Of a stretch of 64,000 nucleotides of DNA, positions 301 to 52,495 are shown piece by piece. The stretch lies in assembly GCA_934133165.1 (NCBI GenBank), contig CAKPAW010000001.1:98756-162755 (forward strand), read 5' to 3'. The notes below the pieces were generated by a model, which saw only the letters and a list, made by a program, of their open reading frames with translations, was not told the origin of the DNA and did no database searches. This stretch comes from an uncultured Clostridia bacterium (lineage in GTDB: Bacteria > Bacillota > Clostridia > TANB77 > CAG-508). Within the stretch, counting starts at the first letter, position 1; each line of letters begins with the position of its first letter. Position numbers and translations under genes: made by a program.

Positions 301-1155
301 CTATTTTATTTCATCAAGTTTCTTTTGCTCTTTTATTTCTAATTTTTTCCTTTCTCTTTCAAGTTCTTTTAAACTCTTTTTAGGTGTTGGCATTTCTTCC
401 GGCATCGTTCCACCAATATCTGCAATTGCCTTTCTAACTTTTTTTCCTACCTCATAATGTACATCTTTTGCTTCTTTCTCACCTTGTACATTATCTTTTA
501 AAAGTTTTTGCTTCGTTTGATTTATTCTAAATAAATTAGCAACTAATTCATCTTCATTCATATTATCTAAAATATCTTCTCTATATCGTAATTTTTTTCT
601 TTTAAATATATCATCAGCGGTTTCACCATTATATAATCCTTTATATCCTGCATTATGAAATTCAGCCATATTTTTAACACCAACAGAAGACGCAACTTTT
701 TGCAAAGTATAATTACCTTGTCTCGTTAACTTTCTTTGATAAAATCTTTTTTCATCATCTGATAATGAATCATATTCTTGCTCTGTTATTTCTTGTTTTC
801 TTGTTTGTATAGCAAAATAGGTTTGTCCTAAAGCAACAACTTCTTTGCTTGGATCTGCATTTTGTACTATTAAATAACATATATATCTTGAAAGTTTATA
901 ATCTTGTATATTAGCAGTGGCATTATTATTTCTTTTTGACAACCTGTTGACCTCAACAAGTTGTTCATCTATATTAAACCCAGAATTTTTACAAGCATCT
1001 TTTGCTTTATTTAAAACCTTTAAGAAGTTTCTCCAGTCTTTATATTCTAAAACTTTTGAAAGTTCTCTAGCATACCAATATTCATTTCCATATTCATCCA
1101 TATGTTTAATATTTTCAAAAATATTATTAGTATATCTATCTACAATTTTCTTCAT
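301..1155 (-). CDS. dinD: DNA-damage-inducible protein D (DinD family, Bro-N/KilA-like)
   Basis: The motifs YWYARELSKVLEYKDWRNFLKVL, SRYICYLIVQNADPSKEVVALGQTYFAIQTRKQE and ANLFRINQTKQKL closely match E. coli DinD. Start moved to the ATG at 1155 (MKKIVDRY), which has a GGAGG RBS; the track start is an alternative-codon extension. Confidence 0.75.
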   Translation of the reverse strand: MKKIVDRYTNNIFENIKHMDEYGNEYWYARELSKVLEYKDWRNFLKVLNKAKDACKNSGFNIDEQLVEVNRLSKRNNNATANIQDYKLSRYICYLIVQNADPSKEVVALGQTYFAIQTRKQEITEQEYDSLSDDEKRFYQRKLTRQGNYTLQKVASSVGVKNMAEFHNAGYKGLYNGETADDIFKRKKLRYREDILDNMNEDELVANLFRINQTKQKLLKDNVQGEKEAKDVHYEVGKKVRKAIADIGGTMPEEMPTPKKSLKELERERKKLEIKEQKKLDEIK

Positions 1156-1496
1156 TACTACCTCCTTATTTATTGCTTCATATAAAAGTTTTCCATAAGT
1201 CGTTATTACCTCTATTTTATTTAAAATAACTATCATTTTCCAGTTATAAAATGTAAAAAGGAATAAGACTAAAAGACTTTATTTATAAGACTTCATAGGA
1301 AGTTTTCCATAAGTCGGTTTATAACAGTTAATGTTTGTTTTATTTTCATTATTCATTATTTTCACCTACTTTATATTATTTTCTAGCAATGAATTAACCT
1401 CTTCAGGCAATACTGCATTTATTCCATTCTTGTTAAAATTAATAATGTTTTCTCTTATATCATCTACAAATAATATTTCGTTTAAATTGCAACCAT

Positions 1497-5066: not shown

Positions 5067-5543
5067 TTACAAAGTTCTATAATTATTTTTGTCTGCTCTT
5101 TCATCTAGTTTTCTATCATATTGTTCATTTTTATAAAACCAATCTGTTTCTTTGTTTACTGGATTTTTAGTTCTTGTTTTATCTAATAAAATATCAAATA
5201 TAGCTGCTATTGGAAGTACAATAGCAATTAGAGCTATAAACATATTCATATAAGTTTCTGGACTAAGTGTTTCTCCTTTTATCATAGGCATAATATTTTC
5301 TATTAGACCTCTTCCAAAATAATAGCCATAGCCTATTAAATATGCGATTGCAGCCCAAATTTTTCTTTTAAATATAAATGGAATCAATGCTAAAACAACA
5401 AATAGCAATATAACTTCTATATTATTATCTATTGGTTTAAATGTAAACTCTATATCTAATGTTCCTGTTATAGCTATTATAAGTCTTAATATCCAAAACA
5501 TTATTATAAACATTGTTATTAACCAACTACTTAAATTTTTCAT
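5067..5543 (-). CDS. Hypothetical integral membrane protein
   Basis: Multiple hydrophobic helices. Start at the ATG at 5543 (MKNLSSW) with an AGGAGA RBS. Confidence 0.4.
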   Translation of the reverse strand: MKNLSSWLITMFIIMFWILRLIIAITGTLDIEFTFKPIDNNIEVILLFVVLALIPFIFKRKIWAAIAYLIGYGYYFGRGLIENIMPMIKGETLSPETYMNMFIALIAIVLPIAAIFDILLDKTRTKNPVNKETDWFYKNEQYDRKLDERADKNNYRTL

Positions 5544-5665
5544 TTTATTTTCTCCTATCTCTATTTTTTCTTTTTTATAAAATTCAATTATCACTTTTAT
5601 GTAATTTTTTTAGAATATAAAAAATTTAGAGGTTAGAATTATTAGTTCCAACCTCCAACCTTTTA

Positions 5666-5983
5666 TTATTGTTCATCATCTACAAAATTAAATTCATCTT
5701 TGAATTTTTCTTTAAAGATTTCAAATACTTTATTGAGTGTATCTTCATCATCAACACTTACGTAAGATTCTTCTTCTTCAGATTCTGTATCTTCTACTTT
5801 TAGAATTACAACTTCTCCTTCTGCTTCTTCATCTTCTTCTACTGGAAGTAATACTACATATTCTTCTCCTTCTAATTCTATTAAATCTAAAAATTCAAAA
5901 GGTACTTCTTCTCCATTTTCATCGTTTAATACAATAATATTATCTAATTCCTCCTCTGGAATGTTGTTTTCATTTTCATCCAT
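5666..5983 (-). CDS. DUF1292-family acidic protein (YrzB-like), the usual partner of ruvX
   Basis: Highly acidic small protein immediately downstream of ruvX, as in the B. subtilis yrzL-yrrK-yrzB order. Start at MDENENN with a GGAGAA RBS. Confidence 0.7.
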   Translation of the reverse strand: MDENENNIPEEELDNIIVLNDENGEEVPFEFLDLIELEGEEYVVLLPVEEDEEAEGEVVILKVEDTESEEEESYVSVDDEDTLNKVFEIFKEKFKDEFNFVDDEQ

Positions 5984-6105
5984 TTTAAAATTTTCTCCTT
6001 TCAATTATTTATATTAATTGTATTTCTACAATATTAATATCTTTTCGTTAGTATTTGTAATTTTGTTTTATCATATACTATTTTTTATATTTGTGCAATA
6101 TATGT

Positions 6106-6528
6106 TTAAGAATTTTCACATTTTTTCATATAAGTCTCTAAAATATATACTGCTGATATGGTATCTACTATATTTCTTTTTTTGTTTTTATTAACATTCA
6201 AGAAATTCATTGTTTTATGAGCCTCTACTGTTGTAAGTCTTTCGTCTATTGTCTCTATTGCTATTTTTGGAAATCTACATTTGCATTTATGTATAAATTT
6301 TTCTGTTACTTCAACTCTTTCAGTTTTAGTTCCATTCATATTTATTGGCATTCCTATAACAAAGGTATCAATTTCATATTGGTTTAATAATTCTTCAAGT
6401 CTTTTTAATACTACTTTGTCATTTCCTTGGTGATGAATAGTTTCTAATCCTTGTACAGTGATATTTAATGCATCTGTTATAGCAATTCCAACTCTAGCAT
6501 CTCCATAATCTATTCCAAGTTTTCTCAT
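6106..6528 (-). CDS. ruvX: Holliday-junction resolvase-like RNase RuvX/YqgF
   Basis: MRKLGIDYGDARVGIAITD N-terminus, 140 aa. Confidence 0.9.
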   Translation of the reverse strand: MRKLGIDYGDARVGIAITDALNITVQGLETIHHQGNDKVVLKRLEELLNQYEIDTFVIGMPINMNGTKTERVEVTEKFIHKCKCRFPKIAIETIDERLTTVEAHKTMNFLNVNKNKKRNIVDTISAVYILETYMKKCENS

Positions 6529-6530
6529 TA

Positions 6531-6788
6531 TTATTCTTCTTCCATTCCTATATAGTTTTTAACCATTTTCTCTAATAATTCATCTCTTTCTACTTGACGA
6601 ATTAAATTTCTAGCCCCTTTATGACTAGTAATATATGTTGGATCTCCAGATAAAATATAACCAACTATTTGATTAACTGGATTGTATCCTTTTTCTGATA
6701 ATGCTTCATATACTTCTTTTAAAATTTCTCTAGTCGCTAATCTTCCCTCATTTGGTACTTTGAAGCACATTGTTTCATCATTTGCCAT
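6531..6788 (-). CDS. ireB: IreB-family regulatory phosphoprotein (UPF0297/YrzL)
   Basis: 85 aa with the [20 protein letters not shown] motif. Conserved position upstream of ruvX. Confidence 0.8.
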
Positions 6789-6812
6789 ACTTTTTTTACC
6801 TCCTTAACAAGT

Positions 6813-7925
6813 CTATATATAATTAATTTGGCTTTCATTTTCTTTCGCAGAGTCTATATATTCTTCTAATTTTTTAGTAGTTCCCTCTAAAGCTGTTCCT
6901 TTATAATAAGTAGTAACTGCTATATTGATTTTAGGACTAATTATTTGTGGTTTATCACCTTCAAATACATCTTCTTCTACTTGTTCAATTTTCATATTTT
7001 CGACATTTTTCTTTATTTCAGTCATAAATTCTGTTATTCCATCTACATCTATTCCAGTAAATGCTATTACAAATTTTGGTCCCATATATCTTACAAAAAC
7101 ATATTCAGAAGCAATATTTTGTCTTACCATATCACTAACTTTTGAAATAACATAATTTCCTGTATGTCTGCCATATTCTTCGTTTATATTATTTATATTT
7201 ATTATTTTGAACATACATATAGCGGAAGTATCATACTCATCAATTTTTCTTTTACCTTCTCCATATAAATATTCTTCTGATTTTAGACCTGTAAACTCAT
7301 CATCTCTGACTATATTTTCTATTACATTTTGTTTATCAATTGTTTTTATTACAGATACTATATTATTTTTTACAACTTCTAATATTGTTGTATCTATATT
7401 GTCAAAATCGTGTGGAACTCCACTCTCAATAATCCAATATCCTATATATATATTGTCTATATATAATGGGAAAAACATTGCTGATTTTGCTCTTCCGAAT
7501 TCCATTTTTTGATAAGGAAGTCTATCTCCTTCTTTTTCTATTGTAATATATTTAGGAGTTGCCGTTTGAATACTATCTTTAAAAATTTCCTCTGAGTGTA
7601 GATTTTTTAAAGTATCCCAATGTTTACTATCTACATTTGTTGCCTTTATTGTATACTCAGCACCATTATATACAACAATTGTAGAATATTTTATGTCGTA
7701 TTTTTCTATTAATATATCATTTATTTTCTTAATTTTTTCATCTGGCGTTTTTTCTTCACTAATAGTATCCATAAATTCTTGTAACACATTTAAGCTTACT
7801 ATTTTTTGGTTTAAGTTACTAAAAGTATCTATTTTCTTATGCACTGACATATTGTATAACATTAAGAATACAATAATAACTACTAGTAATATAATCATAG
7901 CTATAGTCAAAGTTAGCACCTCCAT
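6813..7925 (-). CDS. Membrane-anchored protein with degenerate GGDEF (diguanylate-cyclase-like) C-terminal domain
   Basis: N-terminal TM helix and extracytoplasmic segment. C-terminal region has a GGDEF-like fold but carries RYMGPKF in place of the RYGGEEF active site. Confidence 0.45.
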   Translation of the reverse strand: MEVLTLTIAMIILLVVIIVFLMLYNMSVHKKIDTFSNLNQKIVSLNVLQEFMDTISEEKTPDEKIKKINDILIEKYDIKYSTIVVYNGAEYTIKATNVDSKHWDTLKNLHSEEIFKDSIQTATPKYITIEKEGDRLPYQKMEFGRAKSAMFFPLYIDNIYIGYWIIESGVPHDFDNIDTTILEVVKNNIVSVIKTIDKQNVIENIVRDDEFTGLKSEEYLYGEGKRKIDEYDTSAICMFKIININNINEEYGRHTGNYVISKVSDMVRQNIASEYVFVRYMGPKFVIAFTGIDVDGITEFMTEIKKNVENMKIEQVEEDVFEGDKPQIISPKINIAVTTYYKGTALEGTTKKLEEYIDSAKENESQINYI

Positions 7926-7951
7926 TTTTTTGCTATTTTTGTTTTTCCTTT

Positions 7952-10342
7952 TTAATAATTTCTTTTCATTTTATCTAAAGTAGAATTCATATCATTAGAA
8001 AATGTACTTCCTTCAGCATATTTATTATATTTAGGATTACTATATTTTGCTTTGTTGCTATTCACAGAATTTCCTATTACAGGATATACCATATTTGCTA
8101 ATTTATTTAATGAATTAATAAATTCTTTTGAATATCCACTTAATGTAATATTACAATTTATTAGTCCTTCTAAGTATTTTGTATATACTTGTACATCAAA
8201 TGGTATTACACAATATTGAATAGTTTCCCTATTAAATAATTCTGTCATAAATGACATTGCAGGGTCATTGTAAAATGCCATTCCGCCTATAATTGCCTTT
8301 TCTGTAACTCCTTTAACTTTAGTATATTTATTAATAACTGCTCTTAATTTATTTGGTTCTAATATACCTTTTGCTTTTAATTCTCTTAAATAAGCTGTTA
8401 ATGGTTGAATTGTAAGTACATCCATACTTTGTACTAAATACATTTCGCTTGCTTCTTTTAAATAACCATATTGTGTAGAGAAATCACAATCTAATAATAT
8501 TAAAGCATAGTTTTTTACTAATGTTTCTAATATTGAAGTATAATCTTCAATATTATTTTTTTCACCTGGTAATGATGTATATACATCTAAATTACTATTT
8601 ACTTTTATACCTTCAGCAATACCTTGATTTAATTTTTCTGTGCAATCATATGCTATTTTTCTTAATTGCTCTTCATTTTTTGTATAAATATAATATGAAT
8701 TTCTATTTTCTGTTAAATCTAAAATTGCTGTTTTTATTCCTTGATTTGATAATACTTCTGCTAAATTATTTACTAAGAATGATGTTCCATTTTTTGAAGT
8801 TCCTACCAAAGCTACTATTTTTTTATCTCTTGTTAGTAAACTTTCTAAATTTGCAGATGATTCTCTGTAATTTTGTAAATGAGATTCATTTTGTACTGGA
8901 TTAAAGAAATCTTCTTCATTATTTGAATTATAACTATTGGTATTATAATTATTATTTATTGTTGGTTCTTCTTGTTGTTCTTGTTCGTCATCTTCCCAGC
9001 CTGGAAGAACATTTTCTTCATTATCTTCTTGAGTATTATAATTGTTTGAATTTACATCTTCAAATCCCGGTAATACATCATCATCAAATCCAGAAAGTAT
9101 TGTATCTTCTTCAAATTGTGATTCATTATTATTTGGTTTCATTACACTTGAAGTTTGTTTTTCTTCAATTTCTGGATTTTCAGTTTCTTTTTCAAATCCT
9201 GGTAACATAGAATCTTCTTCAGGTTCTACAATAGTTTCTTCTACAGGATTTTTTCTTGGTCTTCCTCTTCCTTTTTTTGGTTTTTCTTCTACTTGAACAA
9301 TTTCAGGTTGTATTTTCCTTGGTCTGCCTCTTCTCTTCTTTGTTTCTTCAACCATTTCAGGAATTTCATGTACTGGTTCTTGTGTATTAGTTTCTTCTAT
9401 ATCTGGCACATTTATTTCTTCCATTTTTTGTACTAATTTTTCCTCTGGCTTTTCAATTTTTTCTACTTTTTGTACTCTTTTCATTGTATTAGCTGATGGA
9501 ATAATAACTGGTTTAGTTAATTTTTTCTCACCACTTGGTATAGACTCTACTTTTATTCCATTATTGCTAAGTGCTTTGCTTGTATTGTTATTTAACTTTG
9601 TTTTGTTTTTATTTTGATATTGTCCATATTTTGATGTTTTTGGCTTTTCAAATGACATTAATTGTTGATATCTAGGACTGTTTTCTTCTAATACTGCTTT
9701 AACATTTAGTGGTAAAAATTTTATAATAACTCTTAATTGTTGATCTGTATATTGTGTTGCAATACTATCAAAACTTTCTACATAACGTTCTTCATTTCTT
9801 CCTAAACGTTTATAATGTGTTAATATGTTTTGAATCTCTGTTTCACTAACATCTGCTTCATTTTCTGGTTTATAATCAACATCATTAGAATCTATTTTAT
9901 AATAAACTTTAGCTTCTTTTTTAGATCTTGGCTTTTGAATTAATTTACATACTTCTTCTATACTTCTGTCTTGTCCAAGTAAAGCACTATAAACACCTAT
10001 TCCAAATAATTTTATTAATAAGTTATCTGATTTTGTACGTCTATCTGTTGCAATTAATATAATAGGAATATCTTCACCTGCAGTGGTAGAAGCTTCATCT
10101 GAAATATTGTCTAATTTTTCAAATATAAAATTATCTATTGTTTCATAATTGTTGTTAGTAAAAGGCTCTAAGTCCTCACTTATAACAATACGATCATAAG
10201 TTTTATCTTTTTCTAACTCTTTTATAATAGCATTAAAATAATATACATTTTTACTTAAAATTATCTCTTTATACATTTGTTGATATTTTTTTATAATTGT
10301 TTCTGAAATAGATTCATTACTCACTGCAAATAAAACTTTCAT
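7952..10342 (-). CDS. 796-aa protein combining a receiver-like N-terminus, a disordered acidic linker with two AT-hooks (RGRPRK) and LPGF(E/D) repeats, and a C-terminal degenerate ParA/MinD-like ATPase domain
   Basis: C-terminal KIVALVGTSKNGTSFLVNNLAEVLSNQGIKTAILDL mirrors MinD/ParA topology but has a degenerate deviant Walker A (SKNGTS). KKRRGRPRK and KKGRGRPRKNP motifs lie at roughly 9250-9345. LPGFE/LSGFDDDVLPGFED/LPGWEDDE repeats. GGAGGGG RBS 9 nt before the ATG. Confidence 0.5.
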   Translation of the reverse strand: MKVLFAVSNESISETIIKKYQQMYKEIILSKNVYYFNAIIKELEKDKTYDRIVISEDLEPFTNNNYETIDNFIFEKLDNISDEASTTAGEDIPIILIATDRRTKSDNLLIKLFGIGVYSALLGQDRSIEEVCKLIQKPRSKKEAKVYYKIDSNDVDYKPENEADVSETEIQNILTHYKRLGRNEERYVESFDSIATQYTDQQLRVIIKFLPLNVKAVLEENSPRYQQLMSFEKPKTSKYGQYQNKNKTKLNNNTSKALSNNGIKVESIPSGEKKLTKPVIIPSANTMKRVQKVEKIEKPEEKLVQKMEEINVPDIEETNTQEPVHEIPEMVEETKKRRGRPRKIQPEIVQVEEKPKKGRGRPRKNPVEETIVEPEEDSMLPGFEKETENPEIEEKQTSSVMKPNNNESQFEEDTILSGFDDDVLPGFEDVNSNNYNTQEDNEENVLPGWEDDEQEQQEEPTINNNYNTNSYNSNNEEDFFNPVQNESHLQNYRESSANLESLLTRDKKIVALVGTSKNGTSFLVNNLAEVLSNQGIKTAILDLTENRNSYYIYTKNEEQLRKIAYDCTEKLNQGIAEGIKVNSNLDVYTSLPGEKNNIEDYTSILETLVKNYALILLDCDFSTQYGYLKEASEMYLVQSMDVLTIQPLTAYLRELKAKGILEPNKLRAVINKYTKVKGVTEKAIIGGMAFYNDPAMSFMTELFNRETIQYCVIPFDVQVYTKYLEGLINCNITLSGYSKEFINSLNKLANMVYPVIGNSVNSNKAKYSNPKYNKYAEGSTFSNDMNSTLDKMKRNY

Positions 10343-10346
10343 TTGT

Positions 10347-10796
10347 TTAACCCCTCCAACCTTTTACTACGATTGCAAATATTAATGGTAATACTTGCGC
10401 TATTACAAATATTGTAATAATTGAAATCATAATAGCAAAACCTTTATCTCTTGTGTCTAATTTACGAATACCTAAAACATATTGGTAAATAGCACTAATA
10501 GCTATTCCTACAAAACAAAATGGAATACTATAAATTTGTACTTTATTTAATATGTATGCTGTTAATCCGTATGTTTCTGAGCCATATGCTGCTTGATAAT
10601 CTTCTAATGTTTTTTTCTCATTATCTTTTATTTCTACTAATTGACTCATTGTTTCACTTTGTTTTACTTCATTTGATATTGAATTTGTTGTTGCTTTTGT
10701 TGTTTTTGCATTAATAGCATTTGTATTAGTTGCAAATACTGCTGTAGTAGAAAATATACAAATAACAATAGCAAAAACTATACTTATTTTTTTCAT
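10347..10796 (-). CDS. Small secreted/membrane-anchored hypothetical protein (signal peptide plus two C-terminal TM helices)
   Basis: MKKISIVFAIVICIFSTTAVFA signal peptide. Ends 4 nt before the 796-aa gene, so probably co-operonic. Confidence 0.5.
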   Translation of the reverse strand: MKKISIVFAIVICIFSTTAVFATNTNAINAKTTKATTNSISNEVKQSETMSQLVEIKDNEKKTLEDYQAAYGSETYGLTAYILNKVQIYSIPFCFVGIAISAIYQYVLGIRKLDTRDKGFAIMISIITIFVIAQVLPLIFAIVVKGWRG

Positions 10797-10973
10797 TTAT
10801 AGTTGCCCCTTTCTAGCATTTCCTATTTTTTACTTTTCTGGCACAAATTATACTTATATTATAATACAATATTATCTAAAAAATAGCAAGAAAATATGAA
10901 TAATTTTTTTATTTTCTTTTAGGGAAACTAGACTAAAACGAAAAAGGAGACTTTTTTACAGCCTCCTTTTATT

Positions 10974-12062
10974 TTACTTTAATGATGTACTATTATTTAT
11001 TATTAAAATACTATATATGAATAATATGTCTTGATTTGAAAAATTAATGTATTCATTTAATATTTTTGGTGATATATATCTAGTATCGACTACTGTAATT
11101 TTTTTGTAACCTGATACTAATAATGGAATTAAACTACTTGCATAAGAGTCTCTAAATACCACTAGTTCTTTTGTAGATTCACTTTTATCATTTTCTATTG
11201 TTAGTAATGGCACAGCACCTGATAAATATATATCATATTTATCTAAACTATCTTTCTTAGACATATCATATATTTTTGTATATTCTTTTGTTTCATAATT
11301 ATAAACTTTGCAGTTTTCTAAAATATCATTGGTTAATATTTTTATTTCATCTTCTTGCGTTTCTAATGGAAGTTGTCCTGCATATGCTCCTTCAAATTTA
11401 ATAATACTTTTTTGTTCATATTCATTTTCTATTTTTACATTCATTTCATTTGCTATAGTATTTGCTACTTTTAGTAAATTTTCTTGTTTCCAATGAGTAT
11501 CCGTTTTATAATAGTCTGATAATTGCAATTCATCAAAAATGTTAATATATTTTGCAAACTGTAGATTTTCCTTTAATATATATTCTATTTTATTATAATC
11601 TAATTTCAAATTGTCCTCATTTACAAAATAATTCTTATCTGGAACTATTGAAAAATATATATTATTTTCATCTGTTAAATTTTCTTTTTTAATTTGCGTT
11701 ATTTTATCTGCTATATTTTGAACTGAACTTTCATTTAACGGATATGTTTGTCCTATTATATATTCTTTGTTTTTGTATAAATTATCGTAATCTTTCTTTT
11801 TAAAAATATTAAGTTCTACATTTGTTTTTAATTTTCTCATATTTTGTCTTTGAACAAATTGATCTGTTACATATAAGTCAAATTTTTCAAAAAATGTTCC
11901 ATTAAATAATTTTGATATTGAAAATGAAGGTAGTTGTTCTAATTTTCTTCTTTCTGCTATAGAAATAGTATCATCTTTTTTTATTATATTTATAAAAAAT
12001 ATAAGTATAATAAAAAATAAAAACATTATTGTAACTACAATATTTTTTACTTTATCTGTCAT
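10974..12062 (-). CDS. DHHW-family protein (partner of MBOAT O-acyltransferases)
   Basis: DTHW motif (KTDTHWKQ), N-terminal TM anchor, directly downstream of the MBOAT gene. Start at the ATG at 12062 with a GGAGGG RBS; the track start is TTG. Confidence 0.7.
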   Translation of the reverse strand: MTDKVKNIVVTIMFLFFIILIFFINIIKKDDTISIAERRKLEQLPSFSISKLFNGTFFEKFDLYVTDQFVQRQNMRKLKTNVELNIFKKKDYDNLYKNKEYIIGQTYPLNESSVQNIADKITQIKKENLTDENNIYFSIVPDKNYFVNEDNLKLDYNKIEYILKENLQFAKYINIFDELQLSDYYKTDTHWKQENLLKVANTIANEMNVKIENEYEQKSIIKFEGAYAGQLPLETQEDEIKILTNDILENCKVYNYETKEYTKIYDMSKKDSLDKYDIYLSGAVPLLTIENDKSESTKELVVFRDSYASSLIPLLVSGYKKITVVDTRYISPKILNEYINFSNQDILFIYSILIINNSTSLK

Positions 12063-12079
12063 TTTTCCCTCCAATTCTT

Positions 12080-13471
12080 TTAAAATCTAAAATACAAAAA
12101 TGGATTATATGAGTTATCTACTAAATAAGCTGTAACAATAATTAATAATATAATTATAAATATAGGTTCTAACAAATTTATAACTTTTTTTATACTTTTT
12201 TTCATTTTCAACTTTGTTATGCATTCTTTTAGTAATGGTGTTGCTCCTATTATTGAAACTAGAAGTATTATAAAGTATTTCTTTAAGCAGTATAATGTAT
12301 AATCGTTTATAAACACTTCTTTATTTATACCAAATAAACCATTTATATTGATTATTGCATCTGATATATTATTTGCATTAAATATAATAAAACTTATAAT
12401 TACTATAAAAAGTACATACATTCTTTTAAATATGTTAGGTAACTTTTCTATATATTTTCCAAGCCATAACTTTTCTATTATAAGTATTATTCCAAACATT
12501 AATCCCCATATAACAAAATTCCAACTTGCTCCATGCCATATTCCTGTAAGAGTCCAAACTATAAGTAAATTTCTTACTAATACCTTTTTTCCTTTTTTGC
12601 TTCCACCTAACGGAATATATACATAGTCTCTAAACCATGAGCTTAGTGATATATGCCATCTTCTCCAAAATTCTGTTATGCTCTTTGATATGTATGGATA
12701 ATTAAAGTTTTCAAGAAATTCAAATCCAAATATTCTTCCTAACCCTATTGCCATATCTGAATACGCCGAAAAATCAAAATATATTTGCAACATATAGCTT
12801 ATTCCAAAAATCCAATAAAAAACTATACTCTTTTCATTTGTTGCTGTAAATAACTCACATAACTCTCCTAGCATATTTGCAATTAACACTTTTTTGCCTA
12901 ATCCTATTGTAAATCTTCTAACTCCATACGCAAACTTTTCAAAGGTATGTTTTCTATTATTTAACTCTTCTTCTATTGTTTCATATCTTACTATTGGTCC
13001 TGCAATTAATTGTGGAAATAATGAAACATATGTTGCAAGTTTTAATAAGTTTTTTTGTACTCTTACTTTATTTCTATATACATCTACCTCATAACTAATA
13101 ATTTGGAAAGTATAAAATGAAATTCCTATTGGTAAAGCAATTCTTAATATTGGTATATTTACACTTAATATATTATTTATATTTTCTAATATAAAGTCTG
13201 TATACTTAAATATTCCTAATAAAGCTAAATGTATTATAATTATGCATATTAATATTGATTTATTTTTGTACTTATCTATAAAAATTGCACCTATATATGC
13301 TATTAATATTTCAGCTAACATTAAAAATATATATTTAGGCTCACCATAAAAGTAAAAAGCCATAGATGCTATAAATAGTATGAAATTCTTTGCCTTTTTA
13401 GGAACAACAAAATATAGTATTAATACTATGGGCAAAAAATAATATAAAAAACTTATACTTGTAAAAAGCAT
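12080..13471 (-). CDS. MBOAT-family membrane-bound O-acyltransferase (AlgI/DltB-like)
   Basis: Polytopic membrane protein with the conserved MBOAT His region (WHISLSSWFRDYVYIPLGG). Confidence 0.85.
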   Translation of the reverse strand: MLFTSISFLYYFLPIVLILYFVVPKKAKNFILFIASMAFYFYGEPKYIFLMLAEILIAYIGAIFIDKYKNKSILICIIIIHLALLGIFKYTDFILENINNILSVNIPILRIALPIGISFYTFQIISYEVDVYRNKVRVQKNLLKLATYVSLFPQLIAGPIVRYETIEEELNNRKHTFEKFAYGVRRFTIGLGKKVLIANMLGELCELFTATNEKSIVFYWIFGISYMLQIYFDFSAYSDMAIGLGRIFGFEFLENFNYPYISKSITEFWRRWHISLSSWFRDYVYIPLGGSKKGKKVLVRNLLIVWTLTGIWHGASWNFVIWGLMFGIILIIEKLWLGKYIEKLPNIFKRMYVLFIVIISFIIFNANNISDAIININGLFGINKEVFINDYTLYCLKKYFIILLVSIIGATPLLKECITKLKMKKSIKKVINLLEPIFIIILLIIVTAYLVDNSYNPFLYFRF

Positions 13472-13523
13472 TTTTTCCTCCTATTAATAAAGCTTCCTCT
13501 TTTAAGGAAGCTTTATTATTTTA

Positions 13524-14108
13524 TTATTGTACTATCATTTGTGGTGGAAGATTTATATTTTCCTCTTCAGCCTTTTCTAGTTCTTTTCCTATGTTATTTC
13601 CTACATATTCTTTAAATTCATTATATACTGGCTTTGCCCAATCTTCATTAGACATTACCATAAAAATTGTATTTTCATTGTTAGTTATATACATTTTTTC
13701 AGCTGAAACGCAAATCCATTTTGACATATTTATATTTTCTAACATTTCTTTTTTTATTTCTTCAATATTTGCTCCTGATTTTACTTTAACAGTAACTGCT
13801 GAATATGCTTGTGAAGACATTAGTGGTTCAGATACAATTATTTTTTCAATGTCTTTATTTGATTTTAATCCTGTATATTCTTTAACTTGTGTTTCATCTT
13901 TTATAGAAATTTCTTGTGTTTCTAAGTTTGGTAACTTTTCTCCTAATTTACTATAAATTGTCTTAAACATTTCTTTCATTTGTTCTGTTGTTTCAATTTT
14001 ACCTTCCTCGTTACCTTTATTTTTGTTATTTATAATTAAAATAGTTCCTATTATAACTGCTAATATTATAACTGCAATTATAATTATAGTTAAAGTTTGT
14101 TTTTTCAT
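13524..14108 (-). CDS. Hypothetical N-terminally anchored extracytoplasmic protein
   Basis: Signal-anchor MKKQTLTIIIIAVIILAVIIGTILI followed by a hydrophilic domain. Confidence 0.45.
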   Translation of the reverse strand: MKKQTLTIIIIAVIILAVIIGTILIINNKNKGNEEGKIETTEQMKEMFKTIYSKLGEKLPNLETQEISIKDETQVKEYTGLKSNKDIEKIIVSEPLMSSQAYSAVTVKVKSGANIEEIKKEMLENINMSKWICVSAEKMYITNNENTIFMVMSNEDWAKPVYNEFKEYVGNNIGKELEKAEEENINLPPQMIVQ

Positions 14109-14962: not shown

Positions 14963-15661
14963 TTATTCTTTAATTTCTTTTGCAAGTTTTCCTATTGCTT
15001 TCGTTTCTATCCTAGAAACATATGAACGAGATATTCCCATCATTTTTGCAATTTGATTTTGAGTCCTTGGTTTATTACCATCTAATCCAAATCTCATTTC
15101 TATTATCAATTTTTCTCTATCTTTTAATACTAATTTCATTTTTTCATACAATTTCTTTACTTTCATTTTCAAATCAACTTCATCTTCTATGTTCTTTTCA
15201 CTATTTTCTAACACATCTTTTAATGTAACTGTATTATCATCTTTGTCTTTTCCTATTGCATCTTCTAAAGAAACCTCTGCTCCTATCTTTTTTGTACTTC
15301 TCAAATGCATTAGAATTTCATTATCTATGCATCTTGAAACATATGTGGATAATTTAACATTTTTACTTGGTTTAAAGCTATTTATTCCTTTTATTAAACC
15401 TATTGTTCCTATAGAAATTAAATCATCTTGTGAAACTTTTGTTGCTATATATTTTTTAGAAACATGCGCAACTAATCTTAAATTTCTTTCTATTAATATG
15501 TTTCTTGCTTCTTCGTCACCTTGACCTAGTTTTTCTAAATATAAATTTTCTTCTTCAGCAGTTAGTGGTTCTGGAAACAATTGATTATTTGATATATAAC
15601 CTACAAGAAATACCGCTCCTTGTAAAAACGTTAAAAAACTTGAAAGAGTAAGGGCTAGCAT
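14963..15661 (-). CDS. sigK: RNA polymerase sporulation sigma factor SigK (pro-sigma-K), uninterrupted
   Basis: Pro-sequence plus FLVGYISNNQLFPEPLTAEEE...ARNILIERNLRLVAHVSKKY and RFGLDG...SRSYVSRIETKA match pro-sigma-K rather than SigE. GGAGGTG RBS. Confidence 0.85.
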   Translation of the reverse strand: MLALTLSSFLTFLQGAVFLVGYISNNQLFPEPLTAEEENLYLEKLGQGDEEARNILIERNLRLVAHVSKKYIATKVSQDDLISIGTIGLIKGINSFKPSKNVKLSTYVSRCIDNEILMHLRSTKKIGAEVSLEDAIGKDKDDNTVTLKDVLENSEKNIEDEVDLKMKVKKLYEKMKLVLKDREKLIIEMRFGLDGNKPRTQNQIAKMMGISRSYVSRIETKAIGKLAKEIKE

Positions 15662-27963: not shown

Positions 27964-28170
27964 ATGGATTTATCAATAAAAAATACAACTAGAGAACAAA
28001 GAAAAGAAATTGTAAAAACAGCTCTTGCAATTTCTATTACAGGAACTGATTTTCCAAGTGATGAAGCTTTAAAAATAGTGAAAGAATACGTTGATGGTAA
28101 AACTGAAATTGAAGAAGTTCAAAGAAAAATTATTGAATTGTATAAAAAGGATGGTGAAAATAATGATTAA
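27964..28170 (+). CDS. VbhA/YhfG-family small antitoxin-like protein (Fic partner)
   Basis: 68 aa, helical. ALAISITGTDFPSDEALK aligns to the VbhA ALASQRLEGLEP region. Its stop overlaps the fic start, and it has an AAGAGG RBS. Confidence 0.55.
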   Translation: MDLSIKNTTREQRKEIVKTALAISITGTDFPSDEALKIVKEYVDGKTEIEEVQRKIIELYKKDGENND

Positions 28171-28852
28171 AGACCCTTATGTTCAAGAAAACGGAACTTT
28201 AAAAAATAGACTTGGTATTACTGACTATAATACTTTAAATTCAGCTGAAAAAGATATTACTTTTTCAAAATTTCTTAATATAAAAGAAACTTTCCGTACC
28301 AAGTTTGATATTTCTTACATTAAAGCTATTCATAAACATATTTTTGAAGATATTTTTGATTGGGCTGGTGAGTTTAGAGAAGTTCCTGTTTATAAACAAG
28401 AATTAGTAATTCCTGGTATTAGTCTTAATTATACAGATCCTAAAAATATTGAAAAAGAATTATCTGATTGCTTAGAAAAAATTAATAATACTAATTGGAC
28501 TGCACTTACTTTAGATCAAAAAAGTGCTACTTTTACTAAATATCTTACTGAATTTTGGGCAATTCATCCTTTTAGAGATGGTAATACTAGGACTACATTA
28601 ACATTTGCTACTCAATTTTCAAGAGAGCATGATTTTCCTTTAGATTTAGGTGTTTTGCTTGATAATTTAACAAGAAAATTTGATAGTAATGGTAAAATTA
28701 CACAATTTAGTATTAGAGATAAATTTGTATTATCAGCTATTCCTGAAGAATATTGTCCTGAACCTGAACATTTAAATTCTTTAATTCATACTGCAATGGT
28801 TTCTGGAATATCTAAAAATATAGAAAAATTACAAAATAATTTAGAAAGATAA
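28163..28852 (+). CDS. Fic/Doc-family protein (E. coli Fic-like class I AMPylase fold)
   Basis: Fic core motif HPFRDGNTRTT at the expected position and an N-terminal KDPYV segment like E. coli Fic. The ATG at 28163 overlaps the upstream stop by 8 nt. Confidence 0.8.
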   Translation: MIKDPYVQENGTLKNRLGITDYNTLNSAEKDITFSKFLNIKETFRTKFDISYIKAIHKHIFEDIFDWAGEFREVPVYKQELVIPGISLNYTDPKNIEKELSDCLEKINNTNWTALTLDQKSATFTKYLTEFWAIHPFRDGNTRTTLTFATQFSREHDFPLDLGVLLDNLTRKFDSNGKITQFSIRDKFVLSAIPEEYCPEPEHLNSLIHTAMVSGISKNIEKLQNNLER

Positions 28853-35222: not shown

Positions 35223-35298
35223 GGTCGCTTAGCTCAGCTGGGAGAGCATCTGCCTTACAAGCAGGGGGTCATAGGTTCGAGCCCTATAGCGACCACCA
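35223..35298 (+). tRNA. tRNA-Val (anticodon TAC)
   Basis: Cloverleaf with acceptor GGTCGCT/AGCGACC, anticodon loop CTTACAA, GGTTCGAGCC T-arm and encoded CCA. Confidence 0.9.
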
Positions 35299-35317
35299 TT
35301 TTTTTTATTTAAAATTT

Positions 35318-35394
35318 GGCCTGGTAGTTCAGTTGGTTAGAACGCTAGCCTGTCACGCTAGAGGTCGACGGTTCGAGCCCGTTCCAGGTCGCCA
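35318..35394 (+). tRNA. tRNA-Asp (anticodon GTC)
   Basis: Anticodon loop CTGTCAC, T-arm GGTTCGAGCCC, encoded CCA. Confidence 0.9.
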
Positions 35395-35403
35395 TTTTTT
35401 TAT

Positions 35404-35479
35404 GCTTCGATAGCTCAGTTGGTAGAGCAAGGGACTGAAAATCCCTGTGTCAGTGGTTCGATTCCACTTCGAAGCACCA
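35404..35479 (+). tRNA. tRNA-Phe (anticodon GAA)
   Basis: Anticodon loop CTGAAAA, T-arm GGTTCGATTCC, encoded CCA. Confidence 0.9.
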
Positions 35480-37854: not shown

Positions 37855-38562
37855 TTATTTTATAGTTTCTAACAAATTATTTGTTGTAACTCCATCAAAG
37901 TTATAATAAGTATTTGGTGTCGTTCCCAATATTACCGCTTCTGCTAATAATATTTGATTTGATATTTTTTCTTCCATTGTGTTAAATGGAGTTAATATAA
38001 TCACATTGCAATCTACTTGCAAATACATTTTGTGTAATGTCTGATTAATTCCCGCTGATGAAAATTCTGATCTTAAGTCTGTGTCCAAATTTCCTATTGT
38101 TGACATTTTAATATTTACATTTGGTCCTTTCCCTGAAAGTAATCTACTTCCTGTAAAACTACCTAATCTAATTGAAAAGTTGCTATTATCTGCTTTATTA
38201 AATTCTTCTTGTATTTTTATTGCTACGTCTGAAATTATTTCGTTTATAGGAATTACATTTGCTTTTATCATAGTTATATTTCCATTGTTGTCTTTTGATA
38301 TTGTACATAAATCCTCATATTTATACTTGCTCATTACTATAGTTGCTTGTTCATTTGAAATTTTTGTAGATATACTTTTTGCCATATTAATACATTGCTT
38401 ATCTACGATTGGCCTAACTGCATATATAATTCCATTTGCTGTTACTATTGCTATACACATAATAAAGACTATTTTAGTTATTTTTATTAATTTTTCATTA
38501 TTCTTATTTTTGTTAAAACTTTTAGGCAAGTTTATTCGTTTTCTAGAATATATCTTATCCAT
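37855..38562 (-). CDS. Sporulation protein YunB-like
   Basis: N-terminal TM anchor, approximately 235 aa, YunB-like core. Lies in a sporulation gene block. Confidence 0.45.
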   Translation of the reverse strand: MDKIYSRKRINLPKSFNKNKNNEKLIKITKIVFIMCIAIVTANGIIYAVRPIVDKQCINMAKSISTKISNEQATIVMSKYKYEDLCTISKDNNGNITMIKANVIPINEIISDVAIKIQEEFNKADNSNFSIRLGSFTGSRLLSGKGPNVNIKMSTIGNLDTDLRSEFSSAGINQTLHKMYLQVDCNVIILTPFNTMEEKISNQILLAEAVILGTTPNTYYNFDGVTTNNLLETIK

Positions 38563-38577
38563 GATATTTCCTTTAAT

Positions 38578-40107: not shown

Positions 40108-40227
40108 GACAATATACCTCCTTAATTTTTTTATTACTAATGTATATTGCTTGGGCACAAAAAAAATTCCTAAAAATTTAGGAATTTTTTATTATTTTAT
40201 ATTTTTTACTTTTGTTCTTCTTTTATG

Positions 40228-40518
40228 TTATGCTTTTACACTAACAACTGGTGGAATTAATGGTGAATAACTTTCTCCATCAAATACCTCTACTTCTACT
40301 GTTCTTGTTAAAACATCTGTATAACTATAGGTAACATTTCTTTCGTTTTCCTCGTATTTAACTACGAAAATGTTTGGATAAGCCTTTTCTATTGTAGCTT
40401 CTTTTTCGAATGTTTTACTTCTTCCTAAAGAACCTTTAACAATAATTTTTTGACCTACTTTATCTCCAATATCTGTTTTTAGACTTGCTATATCACTTTT
40501 ACAAATCATGTTCATCAC
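40228..40518 (-). CDS. veg: Veg (DUF1021) protein
   Basis: VTYSYTDVLTRTVEVEV matches B. subtilis Veg (VSYSYADILTETVEL). Confidence 0.8.
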   Translation of the reverse strand: MMNMICKSDIASLKTDIGDKVGQKIIVKGSLGRSKTFEKEATIEKAYPNIFVVKYEENERNVTYSYTDVLTRTVEVEVFDGESYSPLIPPVVSVKA

Positions 40519-52465: not shown

Positions 52466-52495
52466 TTTACTTCCTCCTATATATTGGGCACAAAA

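What the first reader, a model, noticed from the sequence alone, without database searches (positions are those of the whole stretch)
6813..10796. Operon upstream of ireB-ruvX encoding an AT-hook, degenerate ParA/MinD protein plus a degenerate GGDEF protein and a secreted partner
Where alaS normally sits upstream of ireB-ruvX-DUF1292, this locus has a three-gene unit. The first gene encodes a signal-peptide protein with a double C-terminal TM. The second encodes a 796-aa protein with an N-terminal CheY-like but Asp-less domain and a roughly 300-aa acidic, disordered linker. That linker carries two textbook AT-hooks (KKRRGRPRK, KKGRGRPRKNP) and four L(P/S)G(F/W)(E/D) repeats. Its C-terminus is a ParA/MinD-fold domain with a degenerate deviant Walker A (GTSKNGTS). 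The third gene encodes a membrane-anchored protein whose GGDEF domain has lost the GG(D/E)EF active site. AT-hooks are rare in bacteria. Combining them with a catalytically dead ParA-like positioning domain and a dead GGDEF receptor suggests an undescribed positioning, nucleoid-tethering or c-di-GMP-sensing scaffold.
Basis: partly seen in the sequence, partly recalled or inferred. Interest (0 to 1): 0.7.

Follow-up and report, generated by a model that had tools for sequence, protein, structure and literature searches.

The report
TadZ-like pseudo-ATPase scaffold with AT-hooks
An uncultured, very AT-rich gut Clostridia lineage keeps an unnamed protein in front of its ireB-ruvX genes that joins a dead receiver domain to a dead ParA/MinD-type domain through a floppy linker carrying two DNA-gripping AT-hooks; it is probably a membrane-linked scaffold that touches the chromosome, but nobody has tested it.

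Summary

**What the 796-aa protein is**
- With a 70-sequence alignment, AlphaFold models the globular parts at pLDDT above 90.
- The overall architecture is therefore TadZ/CpaE-like, but no tad genes are nearby.
- No Pfam or NCBIfam model reaches threshold.

**Conservation**
- At least 591 GTDB species genomes carry the family, all uncultured Clostridia (relatives of CAG:508).
- The order small 2-TM protein, 796-aa protein, dead GGDEF, ireB, ruvX, DUF1292 holds in 77-79 of 80 loci.
- Hairpins bracket these six genes, which suggests one operon.
- The two RGRP AT-hooks sit 20-26 residues apart and occur in 79 of 80 orthologues, followed by acidic LPGF(E/D) repeats. This is an HMGA/CarD-like module.

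**Evolutionary order**
- The membrane-protein/scaffold pair next to ireB is oldest.
- The dead GGDEF gene came later.
- The AT-hooks are youngest.

**Reading**
- c-di-GMP sensing is unsupported because there is no I-site.
- My best reading is a non-catalytic membrane-chromosome scaffold. This is inferred, not shown.

The parts
10942..10970 (-). Terminator-like hairpin that ends the upstream DHHW gene. It marks the 5' boundary of the transcription unit. Promoter-like hexamers lie at 10861-10900.
   Evidence: sequence
10347..10796 (-). p149, a small membrane protein. It has a signal-like N-terminus (aa 1-25), a variable Thr/Asn-rich exposed region, a conserved YG..YG..AY stretch, two TM helices (aa 86-110 and 117-148) and a short basic loop, RKLDTRDKG, between them. 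Its last codons carry the Shine-Dalgarno sequence (GGAGGGG) for the next gene, with a 4-nt gap.
   Evidence: Homologues sit upstream of every p796 homologue examined.
7952..10342 (-). p796, a 796-aa scaffold protein. It consists of a pseudo-receiver, a helical bundle, an HMGA-like disordered linker, a ParA/MinD-fold pseudo-ATPase and a conserved C-terminal helix.
9899..10342 (-). p796 aa 1-148: a receiver-like (beta-alpha)5 domain, pLDDT 89-97. The end of beta1 reads SNE (no Asp-Asp pair). The end of beta3 reads VISE56D, with E56 invariant. There is no equivalent of the conserved Lys.
9653..9844 (-). p796 aa 167-230: a five-helix bundle (pLDDT 92-95). It is conserved across the family (F191, Q197, Y198, L210, P211). 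No fold assignment was obtained.
8855..9649 (-). p796 aa 232-496: a disordered linker (pLDDT below 50) with net charge -21. The first half is basic and the second half is acidic.
9314..9340 (-). AT-hook 1, KKRRGRPRK (aa 335-343)
   Evidence: Pfam AT_hook 16.7 bits against a cut-off of 17.4
9245..9277 (-). AT-hook 2, KKGRGRPRKNP (aa 356-366). The distance between the two hooks is 20-26 residues in 72 of 79 orthologues.
8978..9217 (-). Acidic tract with four L(P/S)G(F/W)(E/D) motifs (aa 380, 416, 424, 446). The family consensus is (E/D)3-(T/N)-(I/V)-L-P-G-F-(E/D)3, in 1-8 copies.
8075..8851 (-). p796 aa 498-756: a ParA/MinD-fold domain (pLDDT 88-97)
8777..8803 (-). Degenerate P-loop, GTSKNGTSF (aa 514-522). 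T515 aligns with the MinD signature Lys11 and T520 with the P-loop Lys16. G514, G519 and F522 are invariant, and K517 (like T520) is conserved in at least 90% of members, down to 28% identity.
8483..8503 (-). Walker-B-like strand, LILLDCD (aa 614-620; D618 invariant). It aligns with the CapB strand VIIDT.
7955..8002 (-). Conserved C-terminal helix, FSNDMNSTLDKMKRNY (aa 781-796). It is moderately amphipathic. Distant relatives end instead in KKGLFG-type tails that resemble the MinD membrane-targeting sequence.
6813..7925 (-). Membrane-anchored dead-GGDEF protein. It has one N-terminal TM segment (aa 1-32), a conserved domain of unknown type (about aa 40-200) and a GGDEF domain (aa 209-364). The start codon may be TTG at 7910 (365 aa) rather than ATG at 7925.
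7071..7091 (-). RYMGPKF in place of RxGG(D/E)EF. It is invariant in 79 orthologues and reads YSGPRF in a distant one. The I-site position reads ASEY.
6531..6788 (-). ireB, 24 nt after the GGDEF gene with no terminator between
6106..6528 (-). ruvX (YqgF family)
5666..6004 (-). DUF1292 protein, the last gene of the unit
5626..5658 (-). Terminator-like hairpin (13 pairs followed by a T-run) directly after DUF1292. It marks the 3' boundary of the unit.

Best explanation
**What it is.** The three genes head a six-gene operon: p149, p796, dead GGDEF, ireB, ruvX, DUF1292.

**Family and architecture.**
- p796 belongs to an unnamed, lineage-wide family with TadZ/CpaE-like architecture.
- The N-terminus is a pseudo-receiver plus a helical bundle. 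The C-terminus is a ParA/MinD-fold domain that has lost both nucleotide-handling lysines.
- It is always encoded directly after a small two-TM membrane protein, with signs of translational coupling.
- In the window's clade, the 265-aa disordered linker between the two globular ends has become an HMGA/CarD-like module. This module has two AT-hooks at a fixed spacing, followed by an acidic tract with repeated LPGF(E/D) motifs.

**How I think it works.** It is a non-catalytic scaffold or landmark protein.
- The globular ends dimerise and bind partners, as proposed for TadZ.
- p149, and perhaps the conserved C-terminal helix, hold it at the cytoplasmic membrane.
- The AT-hooks clamp the minor groove of the AT-rich chromosome (about 26% G+C).
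- The LPGF(E/D) motifs recruit a partner that is still unknown.
- The dead-GGDEF protein is a membrane-anchored accessory partner, not a cyclase and not an I-site c-di-GMP receptor.
- Co-transcription with ireB, which in other Firmicutes regulates peptidoglycan synthesis (my own knowledge, not tested or checked in a paper here), suggests a role in envelope or cell-cycle organisation.

**Shown here:** the folds, the motif losses, the conservation, the synteny and the operon signals.

**Inferred:** membrane association, DNA binding, lack of catalysis and the scaffold role.
For: **Folds.**
- The model has pLDDT above 90 in both globular parts and below 50 in the linker.

**Loss of catalytic residues.**
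- T515 and T520 align with MinD K11 and K16, and T544 aligns with MinD D40.
- T520 aligns with the P-loop Lys of CapB.
- TadZ proteins also have a Walker-A-like motif without a fixed P-loop Lys, K/RGGxGxS/T (10.64898/2026.07.08.737194).

**Conservation and linkage.**
- At least 591 species genomes carry the family.
- There are 265 clusters at 50% identity with E <= 1e-30.
- The six-gene order holds in 77-79 of 80 loci.
- The p149/p796/ireB linkage persists at 28-33% identity.
- The Shine-Dalgarno sequence for p796 lies inside the end of p149.
- Hairpins bracket the six genes.

**HMGA-like module.**
- RGRP hooks are present in 79 of 80 orthologues, at a spacing of 20-26 residues in 72 of 79.
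- RGRP occurs nowhere else in the window.
- CarD of Myxococcus is a bacterial precedent. It combines a disordered acidic region with RGRP hooks and binds spaced AT tracts (PMC8156234).

**Membrane hints.**
- p149 and the GGDEF protein have TM segments.
- Distant homologues carry KKGGLFGxLK motifs and C-terminal KKGLFG tails of the MinD membrane-targeting type.

**Dead GGDEF.**
- MGPKF replaces GGEEF, the metal-binding Asp is replaced, and there is no RxxD.
Against: - No experiment exists for any member, and the organisms are uncultured.
- The AT-hooks and LPGF motifs are missing from older branches, which have an E/K/R/A-rich linker instead. DNA tethering therefore cannot be the core function of the family.
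- Branches without hooks have equally low G+C, 22-26%.
- The window protein's own C-terminal helix is only weakly hydrophobic (mean hydrophobicity -0.36, hydrophobic moment 0.44). Direct membrane binding by this helix is therefore doubtful.
- The near-strict conservation of G-x-x-K-x-G-T-[ST]-F, D542 and D618 hints that the pocket still binds something. 'Pseudo-ATPase' is therefore not proven.
- Nothing shows that p149, p796 and the GGDEF protein touch each other.
- Linkage to ireB may only reflect a shared promoter.
Confidence: 0.4

Rival explanations
1. p796 is still a nucleotide-driven ParA-type positioning ATPase. The invariant K517 inside the P-loop takes over the role of the lost lysines. 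The protein would then cycle on the nucleoid (through the AT-hooks) or on the membrane, as ParA and MinD do.
For: - G514, G519, D542 and D618 are invariant, and K517 is conserved in at least 90% of members, down to 28% identity.
- The fold is a full ParA/MinD fold.
Against: - The positions of both MinD lysines (K11, K16) and of D40 hold Thr.
- No ParB-, MinE- or McdB-like activator gene is linked.
- Constitutive AT-hook binding would make an ATP-gated DNA-binding cycle pointless.
Confidence: 0.12
2. p796 is mainly an architectural or transcriptional factor of the CarD/HMGA type. On this reading the AT-hooks target AT tracts at promoters, and the folded domains recruit regulators. It could regulate its own ireB operon or act genome-wide.
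For: - The linker is HMGA-like, with fixed hook spacing.
- CarD is a precedent (PMC8156234).
- The helical bundle (aa 167-230) could be a DNA- or protein-binding module.
Against: - The older family members have no hooks but keep the domains, the membrane partner and the synteny.
- No helix-turn-helix or RNA-polymerase-binding family is detected.
- The obligate membrane-protein neighbour fits a membrane-bound scaffold better.
Confidence: 0.12
3. This is the first reader's reading: a c-di-GMP-sensing scaffold. The dead GGDEF protein would act as the receptor and signal to the ParA-like protein, by analogy with BcsE(REC*-GGDEF*)-BcsR-BcsQ.
For: - BcsQ is among the best structural matches, and a solved BcsE-BcsR-BcsQ complex exists (6yay, 6ybb).
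- The trio of small protein, ParA-like protein and dead GGDEF looks similar to that system.
Against: - There is no RxxD I-site (ASEY), and several nucleotide-contacting residues are replaced.
- The GGDEF gene is absent from the deepest branch.
- No other GGDEF, EAL or PilZ gene was found among the window ORFs of at least 150 aa that were scanned against Pfam.
Confidence: 0.06
4. p149 and p796 form a degenerate bacterial-tyrosine-kinase-like pair, analogous to the CapA/CapB type. On this reading it regulates envelope polysaccharide synthesis.
For: - The only sequence-level hits in the PDB are to CapB (E 0.009-0.08).
- One NCBI record names a homologue 'CpsD/CapB family tyrosine-protein kinase'.
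- A membrane partner is encoded upstream.
- There is a Tyr-rich stretch, KYSNPKYNKY, at aa 766-775.
- Envelope genes lie nearby (MBOAT, DHHW, WecG).
Against: - The P-loop Lys is absent.
- p149 has no Wzz/CapA-type domain.
- The polysaccharide genes are not syntenic in other genomes.
- The Tyr-rich stretch is missing in distant members.
Confidence: 0.06
5. p796 is simply the TadZ/CpaE of a Tad pilus.
For: - It has the same two-domain architecture.
- TadZ 3fkq and the CpaE2 N-terminal domain are among the structural matches.
Against: - No tadA, tadB/C or pilin genes are adjacent in the window or in the six loci with called genes. A lone T2SSE gene lies 6 kb away in L082 only.
- The 80 genome loci all show the same non-tad gene order downstream of p796.
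- TANB77 genomes have a separate Tad cluster with its own TadZ (231 aa) and CpaE (280 aa) (PMC11680825).
- The K/R-G-G part of the TadZ motif is absent.
Confidence: 0.03

Closest known systems
TadZ / CpaE (Tad pilus localisation proteins)
   Same: [quoted passage not shown]
- In both, the Walker-A-like motif has no fixed P-loop Lys.
- Both are thought to act as localisation hubs rather than as motors.
- Evidence: 10.64898/2026.07.08.737194.
   Different: - p796 is not in a tad locus.
- The TadZ K/R-G-G signature is absent.
- p796 has an extra helical bundle.
- A 265-aa HMGA-like linker is inserted between the domains.
- It has an obligate small 2-TM partner.
- It is linked to ireB-ruvX.
- No sequence model of the CpaE/TadZ families matches it.
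ParA / MinD / FlhG / FleN / McdA positioning ATPases
   Same: - The Walker-B Asp and the first switch-I Asp are kept.
- Distant family members carry MinD-like basic-hydrophobic tails.
   Different: - The signature Lys, the P-loop Lys and the second switch-I Asp are all Thr.
- Pfam CbiA scores only E 0.007-0.06, below threshold.
- A profile search of 1.84 billion representative proteins finds only 754 hits, so it does not reach canonical ParA/MinD.
CarD HMGA-like domain of Myxococcus xanthus (and eukaryotic HMGA)
   Same: Both are disordered segments that combine RGRP AT-hooks with a highly acidic tract. In CarD this segment binds spaced AT tracts in the minor groove (PMC8156234).
   Different: - p796 has two hooks rather than four or three.
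- In p796 the module is an internal linker, not a C-terminal tail.
- It is attached to a pseudo-receiver and a pseudo-ParA rather than to an RNA-polymerase-binding domain.
- The acidic tract carries LPGF(E/D) motifs.
BcsE (REC*-GGDEF*) - BcsR - BcsQ cellulose secretion regulators
   Same: Both combine a ParA/MinD-fold protein, a small partner and degenerate receiver and GGDEF domains. BcsQ is a top structural match.
   Different: - BcsE binds c-di-GMP (the solved BcsE-BcsR-BcsQ complex 6ybb has it bound), through an I-site as I recall. Here the I-site is absent.
- The domains are distributed differently over the proteins.
- No cellulose synthase genes are present.
Pseudo-receiver domains such as FrzS
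   Different: There is no sequence similarity. The family has an invariant Glu at the acceptor position.

Membership tests
ParA/MinD superfamily (deviant Walker A ATPases) | SIMIBI ParA/MinD three-dimensional fold | tested here: met
   [not shown]
ParA/MinD superfamily (deviant Walker A ATPases) | Deviant Walker A, xKGGxGK[ST], with a signature Lys and a P-loop Lys | tested here: not met
   The motif is GTSKNGTS. T515 aligns with MinD K11 and T520 with K16. T520 aligns with the CapB P-loop Lys. T520 holds in at least 90% of the family.
ParA/MinD superfamily (deviant Walker A ATPases) | Switch I / Walker A' Asp pair (MinD D38, D40) and Walker B Asp | tested here: inconclusive
   D542 aligns with D38 and is invariant. 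T544 aligns with D40. D618, in LILLDCD, aligns with the CapB Walker B strand.
ParA/MinD superfamily (deviant Walker A ATPases) | Match to a curated sequence model (Pfam CbiA, ParA, AAA_31 or MipZ; NCBIfam) above its cut-off | tested here: not met
   CbiA scores 13.8-16.7 bits against a cut-off of 25.4. None of 21 diverse members matches at E <= 0.01. NCBIfam finds nothing.
ParA/MinD superfamily (deviant Walker A ATPases) | ATP-dependent dimerisation and stimulated hydrolysis | not testable with these tools
   This needs purified protein.
TadZ/CpaE | N-terminal atypical receiver domain plus C-terminal atypical ParA/MinD domain | tested here: met
   [not shown]
TadZ/CpaE | Walker-A-like motif K/R-G-G-x-G-x-S/T | tested here: not met
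   The aligned residues are T-S-K-N-G-T-S. The G-x-S part fits, but the K/R-G-G part is absent.
TadZ/CpaE | Encoded in a tad/cpa pilus locus next to tadA | tested here: not met
   No tad genes appear in the window or in the six loci with called genes, and the 80 genome loci share the same non-tad order downstream. TANB77 has a separate Tad cluster with its own TadZ and CpaE (PMC11680825).
AT-hook (PF02178) | R-G-R-P core flanked by Lys/Arg, in a disordered context | tested here: met
   KKRRGRPRK and KKGRGRPRKNP lie in a region with pLDDT below 50. They are conserved in 79 of 80 orthologues. The Pfam score of 16.7 is just below the cut-off of 17.4, but one homologue carries a precomputed PF02178 hit.
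AT-hook (PF02178) | Minor-groove binding to AT-rich DNA | not testable with these tools
   This needs EMSA or footprinting.
GGDEF diguanylate cyclases | GGDEF domain | tested here: met
   Pfam PF00990 E 3e-11, 43.8 bits against 23.8. TIGR00254 38.8 bits against 37.4.
GGDEF diguanylate cyclases | GG(D/E)EF active-site motif and metal-binding Asp | tested here: not met
   MGPKF aligns with GGEEF of 6zxb. 'fkiin' aligns with 'didkf', so the Asp is lost. The motif is invariant in 79 orthologues.
Degenerate GGDEF c-di-GMP receptors (I-site type) | RxxD inhibitory site five residues before the GGDEF motif | tested here: not met
   ASEY occupies that position.
Response-regulator receiver domains | (beta-alpha)5 receiver fold | tested here: met
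   [not shown]
Response-regulator receiver domains | Active-site residues Asp-Asp, phospho-acceptor Asp, Thr/Ser and Lys | tested here: not met
   The end of beta1 reads V-S-N-E. The end of beta3 reads VIS-E56 (Glu invariant). No Lys follows beta5. Positions were assigned from secondary-structure register, not from a residue-level structural alignment. Pfam Response_reg gives no hit.
BY-kinases (CapB/CpsD/Wzc) | Walker A Lys, C-terminal Tyr cluster, and a Wzz-type membrane activator | tested here: not met
   [not shown]

The most novel reading that the evidence does not exclude
The small 2-TM protein and the TadZ-like pseudo-ATPase form a previously unrecognised, order-wide cell-organisation module of TANB77-type Clostridia. 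On this reading, in the CAG-508-like clade the module has been converted into a physical tether between the membrane and the AT-rich chromosome. Its LPGF(E/D) motifs would dock division, cell-wall or DNA-processing factors. It would then be a functional analogue of Noc, RacA or Min-type systems, built from non-catalytic parts and co-expressed with the IreB cell-wall regulator.
Probability: 0.15. Interest if true: 0.8.

Novelty: new variant of a known kind. Interest (0 to 1): 0.58.

Why it matters
- **The lineage.** TANB77 and its family CAG-508 form a prevalent but uncultured gut order with reduced genomes. The order has been linked to response to cancer immunotherapy (PMC11680825), and almost nothing is known of its cell biology.
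- **The family.** This protein family is present in at least 591 species genomes, sits in a housekeeping operon, and matches no curated family model in any library tried.
- **Evolutionary interest.** It shows how a ParA/MinD fold and a receiver fold can both lose their chemistry and persist as a scaffold. It also shows a bacterial lineage acquiring textbook HMGA-type AT-hooks, which are rare in bacteria.
- **If the tether reading is right.** It would be a new way of coupling chromosome, membrane and wall synthesis.
- **Testability.** Heterologous expression and peptide-DNA assays could test it without culturing the organism.

Tried and rejected
1. **First structure prediction.** With 29 close homologues it gave mean pLDDT 48. 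I did not use it. Adding relatives at 28-50% identity raised the domains above 90.
2. **Sequence-only routes to ParA.** These failed or were marginal:
   - Pfam, NCBIfam, PADLOC and PHROGs.
   - phmmer and profile searches against the PDB, where only CapB appeared, at E 0.009-0.08.
I used it only for motif register.
3. **Names.** Cluster look-ups gave only 'hypothetical protein'.
4. **Phage or defence origin.** Rejected: no PADLOC hit, and the only PHROG hits are weak or are generic GGDEF families of unknown function.
5. **AT-hooks as an adaptation to extreme AT content.** Rejected: hook-less relatives have 22-26% G+C.
6. **Direct membrane binding by the C-terminal helix.** The amphipathicity calculation supports it only weakly for the window protein.
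7. **afdb50 fold search.** The library was unavailable.
8. **TadZ structure paper (PMC3272108).** It is not held in the library.
9. **RNA elements.** Rfam and tRNA scans found nothing in the region.
10. **Literature.** Searches for AT-hook plus ParA, and for IreB/RuvX/DUF1292, found no description of this family.
11. **Helical bundle (aa 167-230).** I could not assign its fold because fold searches take whole models only.

Full report
**1. What is in the sequence**

The window has about 26% G+C. Six consecutive minus-strand ORFs cover 5666-10796:

| ORF | Coordinates | Size / identity |
|---|---|---|
| p149 | 10347-10796 | 149 aa |
| p796 | 7952-10342 | 796 aa |
| GGDEF protein | 6813-7925 | 370 aa |
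| IreB | 6531-6788 | Pfam E 1e-38 |
| RuvX | 6106-6528 | Pfam E 1e-39 |
| DUF1292 | 5666-6004 | Pfam E 1e-16 |

- A terminator-like hairpin follows the upstream DHHW gene (10970-10942). Another follows DUF1292 (5658-5626). The scan found five such sites where 0.8 were expected.
- Gaps inside the block are 4, 26, 24 and 2 nt, then 101 nt before DUF1292.
- The Shine-Dalgarno sequence for p796 (GGAGGGG) lies inside the last codons of p149.
- I read this as one operon with translational coupling of the first two genes. This is an inference from sequence signals only.

**2. The 796-aa protein**

RGRP occurs twice in the six-frame translation of the whole window, both times in this linker, against about 0.03 expected per 17,000 coding residues.

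*Model.*
- A first AlphaFold run with 29 close homologues was poor (mean pLDDT 48).
- A profile search of 1.84 billion representative proteins supplied relatives down to 28% identity.
- With a 70-sequence alignment (A3) the model has pLDDT 89-97 for residues 1-148. It has 92-95 for residues 167-230, below 50 for 236-496 and 88-97 for 498-756.
- A short C-terminal helix (785-795) scores 57-73.

*C-terminal domain.*
- Foldseek against the PDB puts ParA-family 3ea0 first (E 3e-8, target-normalised TM 0.72). FlhG, MinD, Soj and BcsQ follow.

*N-terminal domain.*

**3. Both folded domains have lost their chemistry**

*ParA/MinD-like domain.*
- Sequence profiles barely see ParA. Pfam CbiA scores E 0.007-0.06, and none of 21 diverse members matches any Pfam ParA or receiver model.
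- The only sequence-level PDB matches are CapB tyrosine kinases (E 0.009-0.08).
- Those alignments place T520 on the P-loop Lys and LILLDCD on the Walker B strand.
- An hhalign of the domain profile with E. coli MinD is weak (36 columns) but gives the same register.

| p796 residue | MinD residue |
|---|---|
| T515 | K11 (signature Lys) |
| T520 | K16 (P-loop Lys) |
| D542 | D38 |
| T544 | D40 |

- The motif G-x-x-K-x-G-T-[ST]-F is conserved to the deepest branches: G514, G519 and F522 are invariant, and K517 and T520 hold in at least 90% of members. This is an old state, not recent decay. I cannot explain why it is so strictly kept.

*Receiver-like domain.*
- beta1 ends in V-S-N-E, with no Asp-Asp pair.
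- beta3 ends in VIS-E56-D. E56 is invariant and D57 is variable.
- No Lys follows beta5.
- These positions come from secondary-structure register, not from a residue-level superposition.

**4. The linker**

- Residues 232-375 are basic (32 K/R against 24 D/E) and carry the two hooks.
- Residues 376-495 are acidic (4 K/R against 33 D/E) and carry four L(P/S)G(F/W)(E/D) motifs.
- Among 80 orthologues taken from GTDB species genomes, 73 have two RGRP[KR][KR] hooks, one has three and one has one. The other five have two hooks of the variant RGRPPK.
- The spacing between the hooks is 20-26 residues in 72 of 79.
- The repeated motif has the consensus (E/D)3-(T/N)-(I/V)-L-P-G-F-(E/D)3, in 1-8 copies.
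- RGRP hooks combined with an acidic disordered tract are the make-up of HMGA proteins and of the HMGA-like domain of Myxococcus CarD. CarD binds spaced AT tracts, and its reviewers call such motifs rare in bacteria (PMC8156234).
- The second refutation test ('RGRPRK not conserved') also fails.

**5. Distribution and synteny**

*Distribution.*
- The family has more than 6,000 clusters at 90% identity. It has 265 clusters at 50% identity with E <= 1e-30.
- At least 591 GTDB species genomes carry it.
- All are uncultured Clostridia. Record titles include Clostridium sp. CAG:508, CAG:567 and Candidatus Merdicola.
- CAG-508 is a major family of the uncultured order TANB77 (PMC11680825). Placing the window in that order is my inference from these relatives.

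*Gene order in the 80 loci.* Counts include loci where the contig ends early.

| Gene next to p796 | Loci with it (of 80) |
|---|---|
| p149 | 77 |
| GGDEF | 79 |
| IreB | 79 |
| RuvX | 78 |
| DUF1292 | 78 |

*Layering by sequence distance.*
- Relatives at 28-33% identity keep a p149 homologue, the p796 homologue and ireB-ruvX-DUF1292. They have no GGDEF gene and no hooks.
- Those relatives have an E/K/R/A-rich linker, a KKGGLFGxLK motif after the N-terminal part and a C-terminal KKGLFG tail. That tail resembles MinD membrane-targeting sequences.
- Relatives at 30-41% identity have the GGDEF gene (YSGPRF in L083) but still no hooks.
- The order of acquisition is therefore: first the membrane-protein/scaffold pair next to ireB, then the dead GGDEF, then the HMGA-like linker.
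- Hook-less branches are just as AT-rich (22-26% G+C).

**6. The GGDEF protein**

- It has one N-terminal TM segment and a conserved region of unknown type (about residues 40-200).
- Its GGDEF domain aligns with the Leptospira cyclase 6zxb. MGPKF lies over GGEEF, and the metal-binding Asp is replaced.
- VRYMGPKFV is invariant in 79 orthologues, and the I-site position reads ASEY.
- It is neither a cyclase nor an I-site receptor. Database names such as 'diguanylate cyclase' are misleading.
- The start codon may be TTG at 7910 rather than ATG at 7925.

**7. What it most likely does**

The closest architecture is TadZ/CpaE.
- TadZ/CpaE has an atypical receiver domain plus an atypical ParA/MinD domain.
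- Its Walker-A-like motif, K/RGGxGxS/T, has no fixed P-loop Lys.
- It is regarded as a localisation hub (10.64898/2026.07.08.737194).

p796 is not the Tad protein, for three reasons.
- No tad genes are linked to it.
- TANB77 has its own Tad cluster with its own TadZ and CpaE.
- The K/R-G-G signature is missing.

My best reading (confidence about 0.4) is a non-catalytic scaffold.
- p149 holds it at the membrane.
- In this clade it grips AT-rich DNA through the hooks.
- It presents LPGF(E/D) motifs to an unknown partner.
- The dead GGDEF protein is a membrane-bound accessory.
- It is expressed together with IreB.

The folds, motif states, conservation and synteny are shown. Every functional step is inferred.

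Rivals, weighed in the rival list:
- a still-active ATPase that uses K517;
- a CarD-like architectural regulator;
- a BcsE/BcsQ-like c-di-GMP module;
- a degenerate tyrosine-kinase pair;
- a true TadZ.

**8. Novelty and score**

- Each part belongs to a known kind: ParA/MinD fold, pseudo-receiver, AT-hook and degenerate GGDEF. The two-domain plan has a precedent in TadZ.
- What is new is the combination. It has an HMGA-like module inside such a protein, an obligate 2-TM partner, fixed linkage to ireB-ruvX and order-wide conservation without any annotation.
- I rate it a new variant of a known kind, with interest 0.58.
- It would surprise specialists moderately. It offers a testable entry into the cell biology of an uncultured, clinically noted gut order. 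Its function remains unknown.

Noticed in passing
window 10974-14108 (-): MBOAT/DltB-like (12080-13471), DHHW (10974-12074) and a 194-aa protein lie between sigK and the operon. Among the 80 related loci they are found upstream of p149 only in the nearest relative (L001). This looks like a recent insertion of an O-acylation module.
   Followed up: partly
window 14963-15661 (-); also L081 5492-6178: A sporulation sigma factor SigK (TIGR02846, 299.8 bits) lies about 4 kb upstream of the operon. A sigma-70-family gene of similar size and the same Pfam domains (not typed further) also lies about 1.4 kb upstream of the p149 homologue in the distant locus L081. The neighbourhood may therefore be old.
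   Followed up: partly
window 37855-41373 (-): Sporulation genes YunB, SipL (SPOCS + LysM) and the YabG protease are present. This reduced-genome, uncultured lineage appears to keep a sporulation programme.
   Followed up: no
window 41632-46922 (-): A cell-separation cluster: a CtpB-like S41 protease, two tandem PcsB-like coiled-coil M23 peptidases, FtsX and FtsE.
   Followed up: no
window 52010-52957 (-): DivIVA and SepF lie side by side. Both are candidate partners for a membrane- or division-linked scaffold. No MinD or ParA gene was seen among the window ORFs of at least 150 aa that were scanned.
   Followed up: no
window 5067-5594 (-): A 175-aa protein with three hydrophobic segments and no family match lies just after the operon terminator. 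It is conserved at that position in 67 of 80 loci.
   Followed up: partly
window 7910-7925: The start of the GGDEF gene is ambiguous. The first ATG (7925) overlaps a GGAGGTG that would serve as the ribosome-binding site for a TTG start at 7910. Public gene calls give 365 aa.
   Followed up: yes
window 8012-8047 (p796 aa 766-777): A Tyr-rich stretch, KYSNPKYNKYAE, lies just before the C-terminal helix. It is conserved in close orthologues and absent in distant ones. It recalls the Tyr clusters of BY-kinases but may be chance.
   Followed up: partly
A2 alignment; L081 and L082: Distant family members carry two GLFG-type basic-hydrophobic motifs, one after the N-terminal part and one at the C-terminus. 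Their linker is a long E/K/R/A/Q-rich segment that looks like a charged single helix or a coiled coil. The linker has been swapped wholesale between clades.
   Followed up: partly
window 301-1236 (-) and 28091-28852 (+): A Bro-N domain protein and a Fic-domain protein are present. Both may be remnants of mobile elements.
   Followed up: no
window 35223-35479 (+), 51332-51406 (-): A tRNA-Val/Asp/Phe cluster and a tRNA-Trp are present. No riboswitch or T-box was found anywhere in the window at Rfam gathering thresholds.
   Followed up: yes
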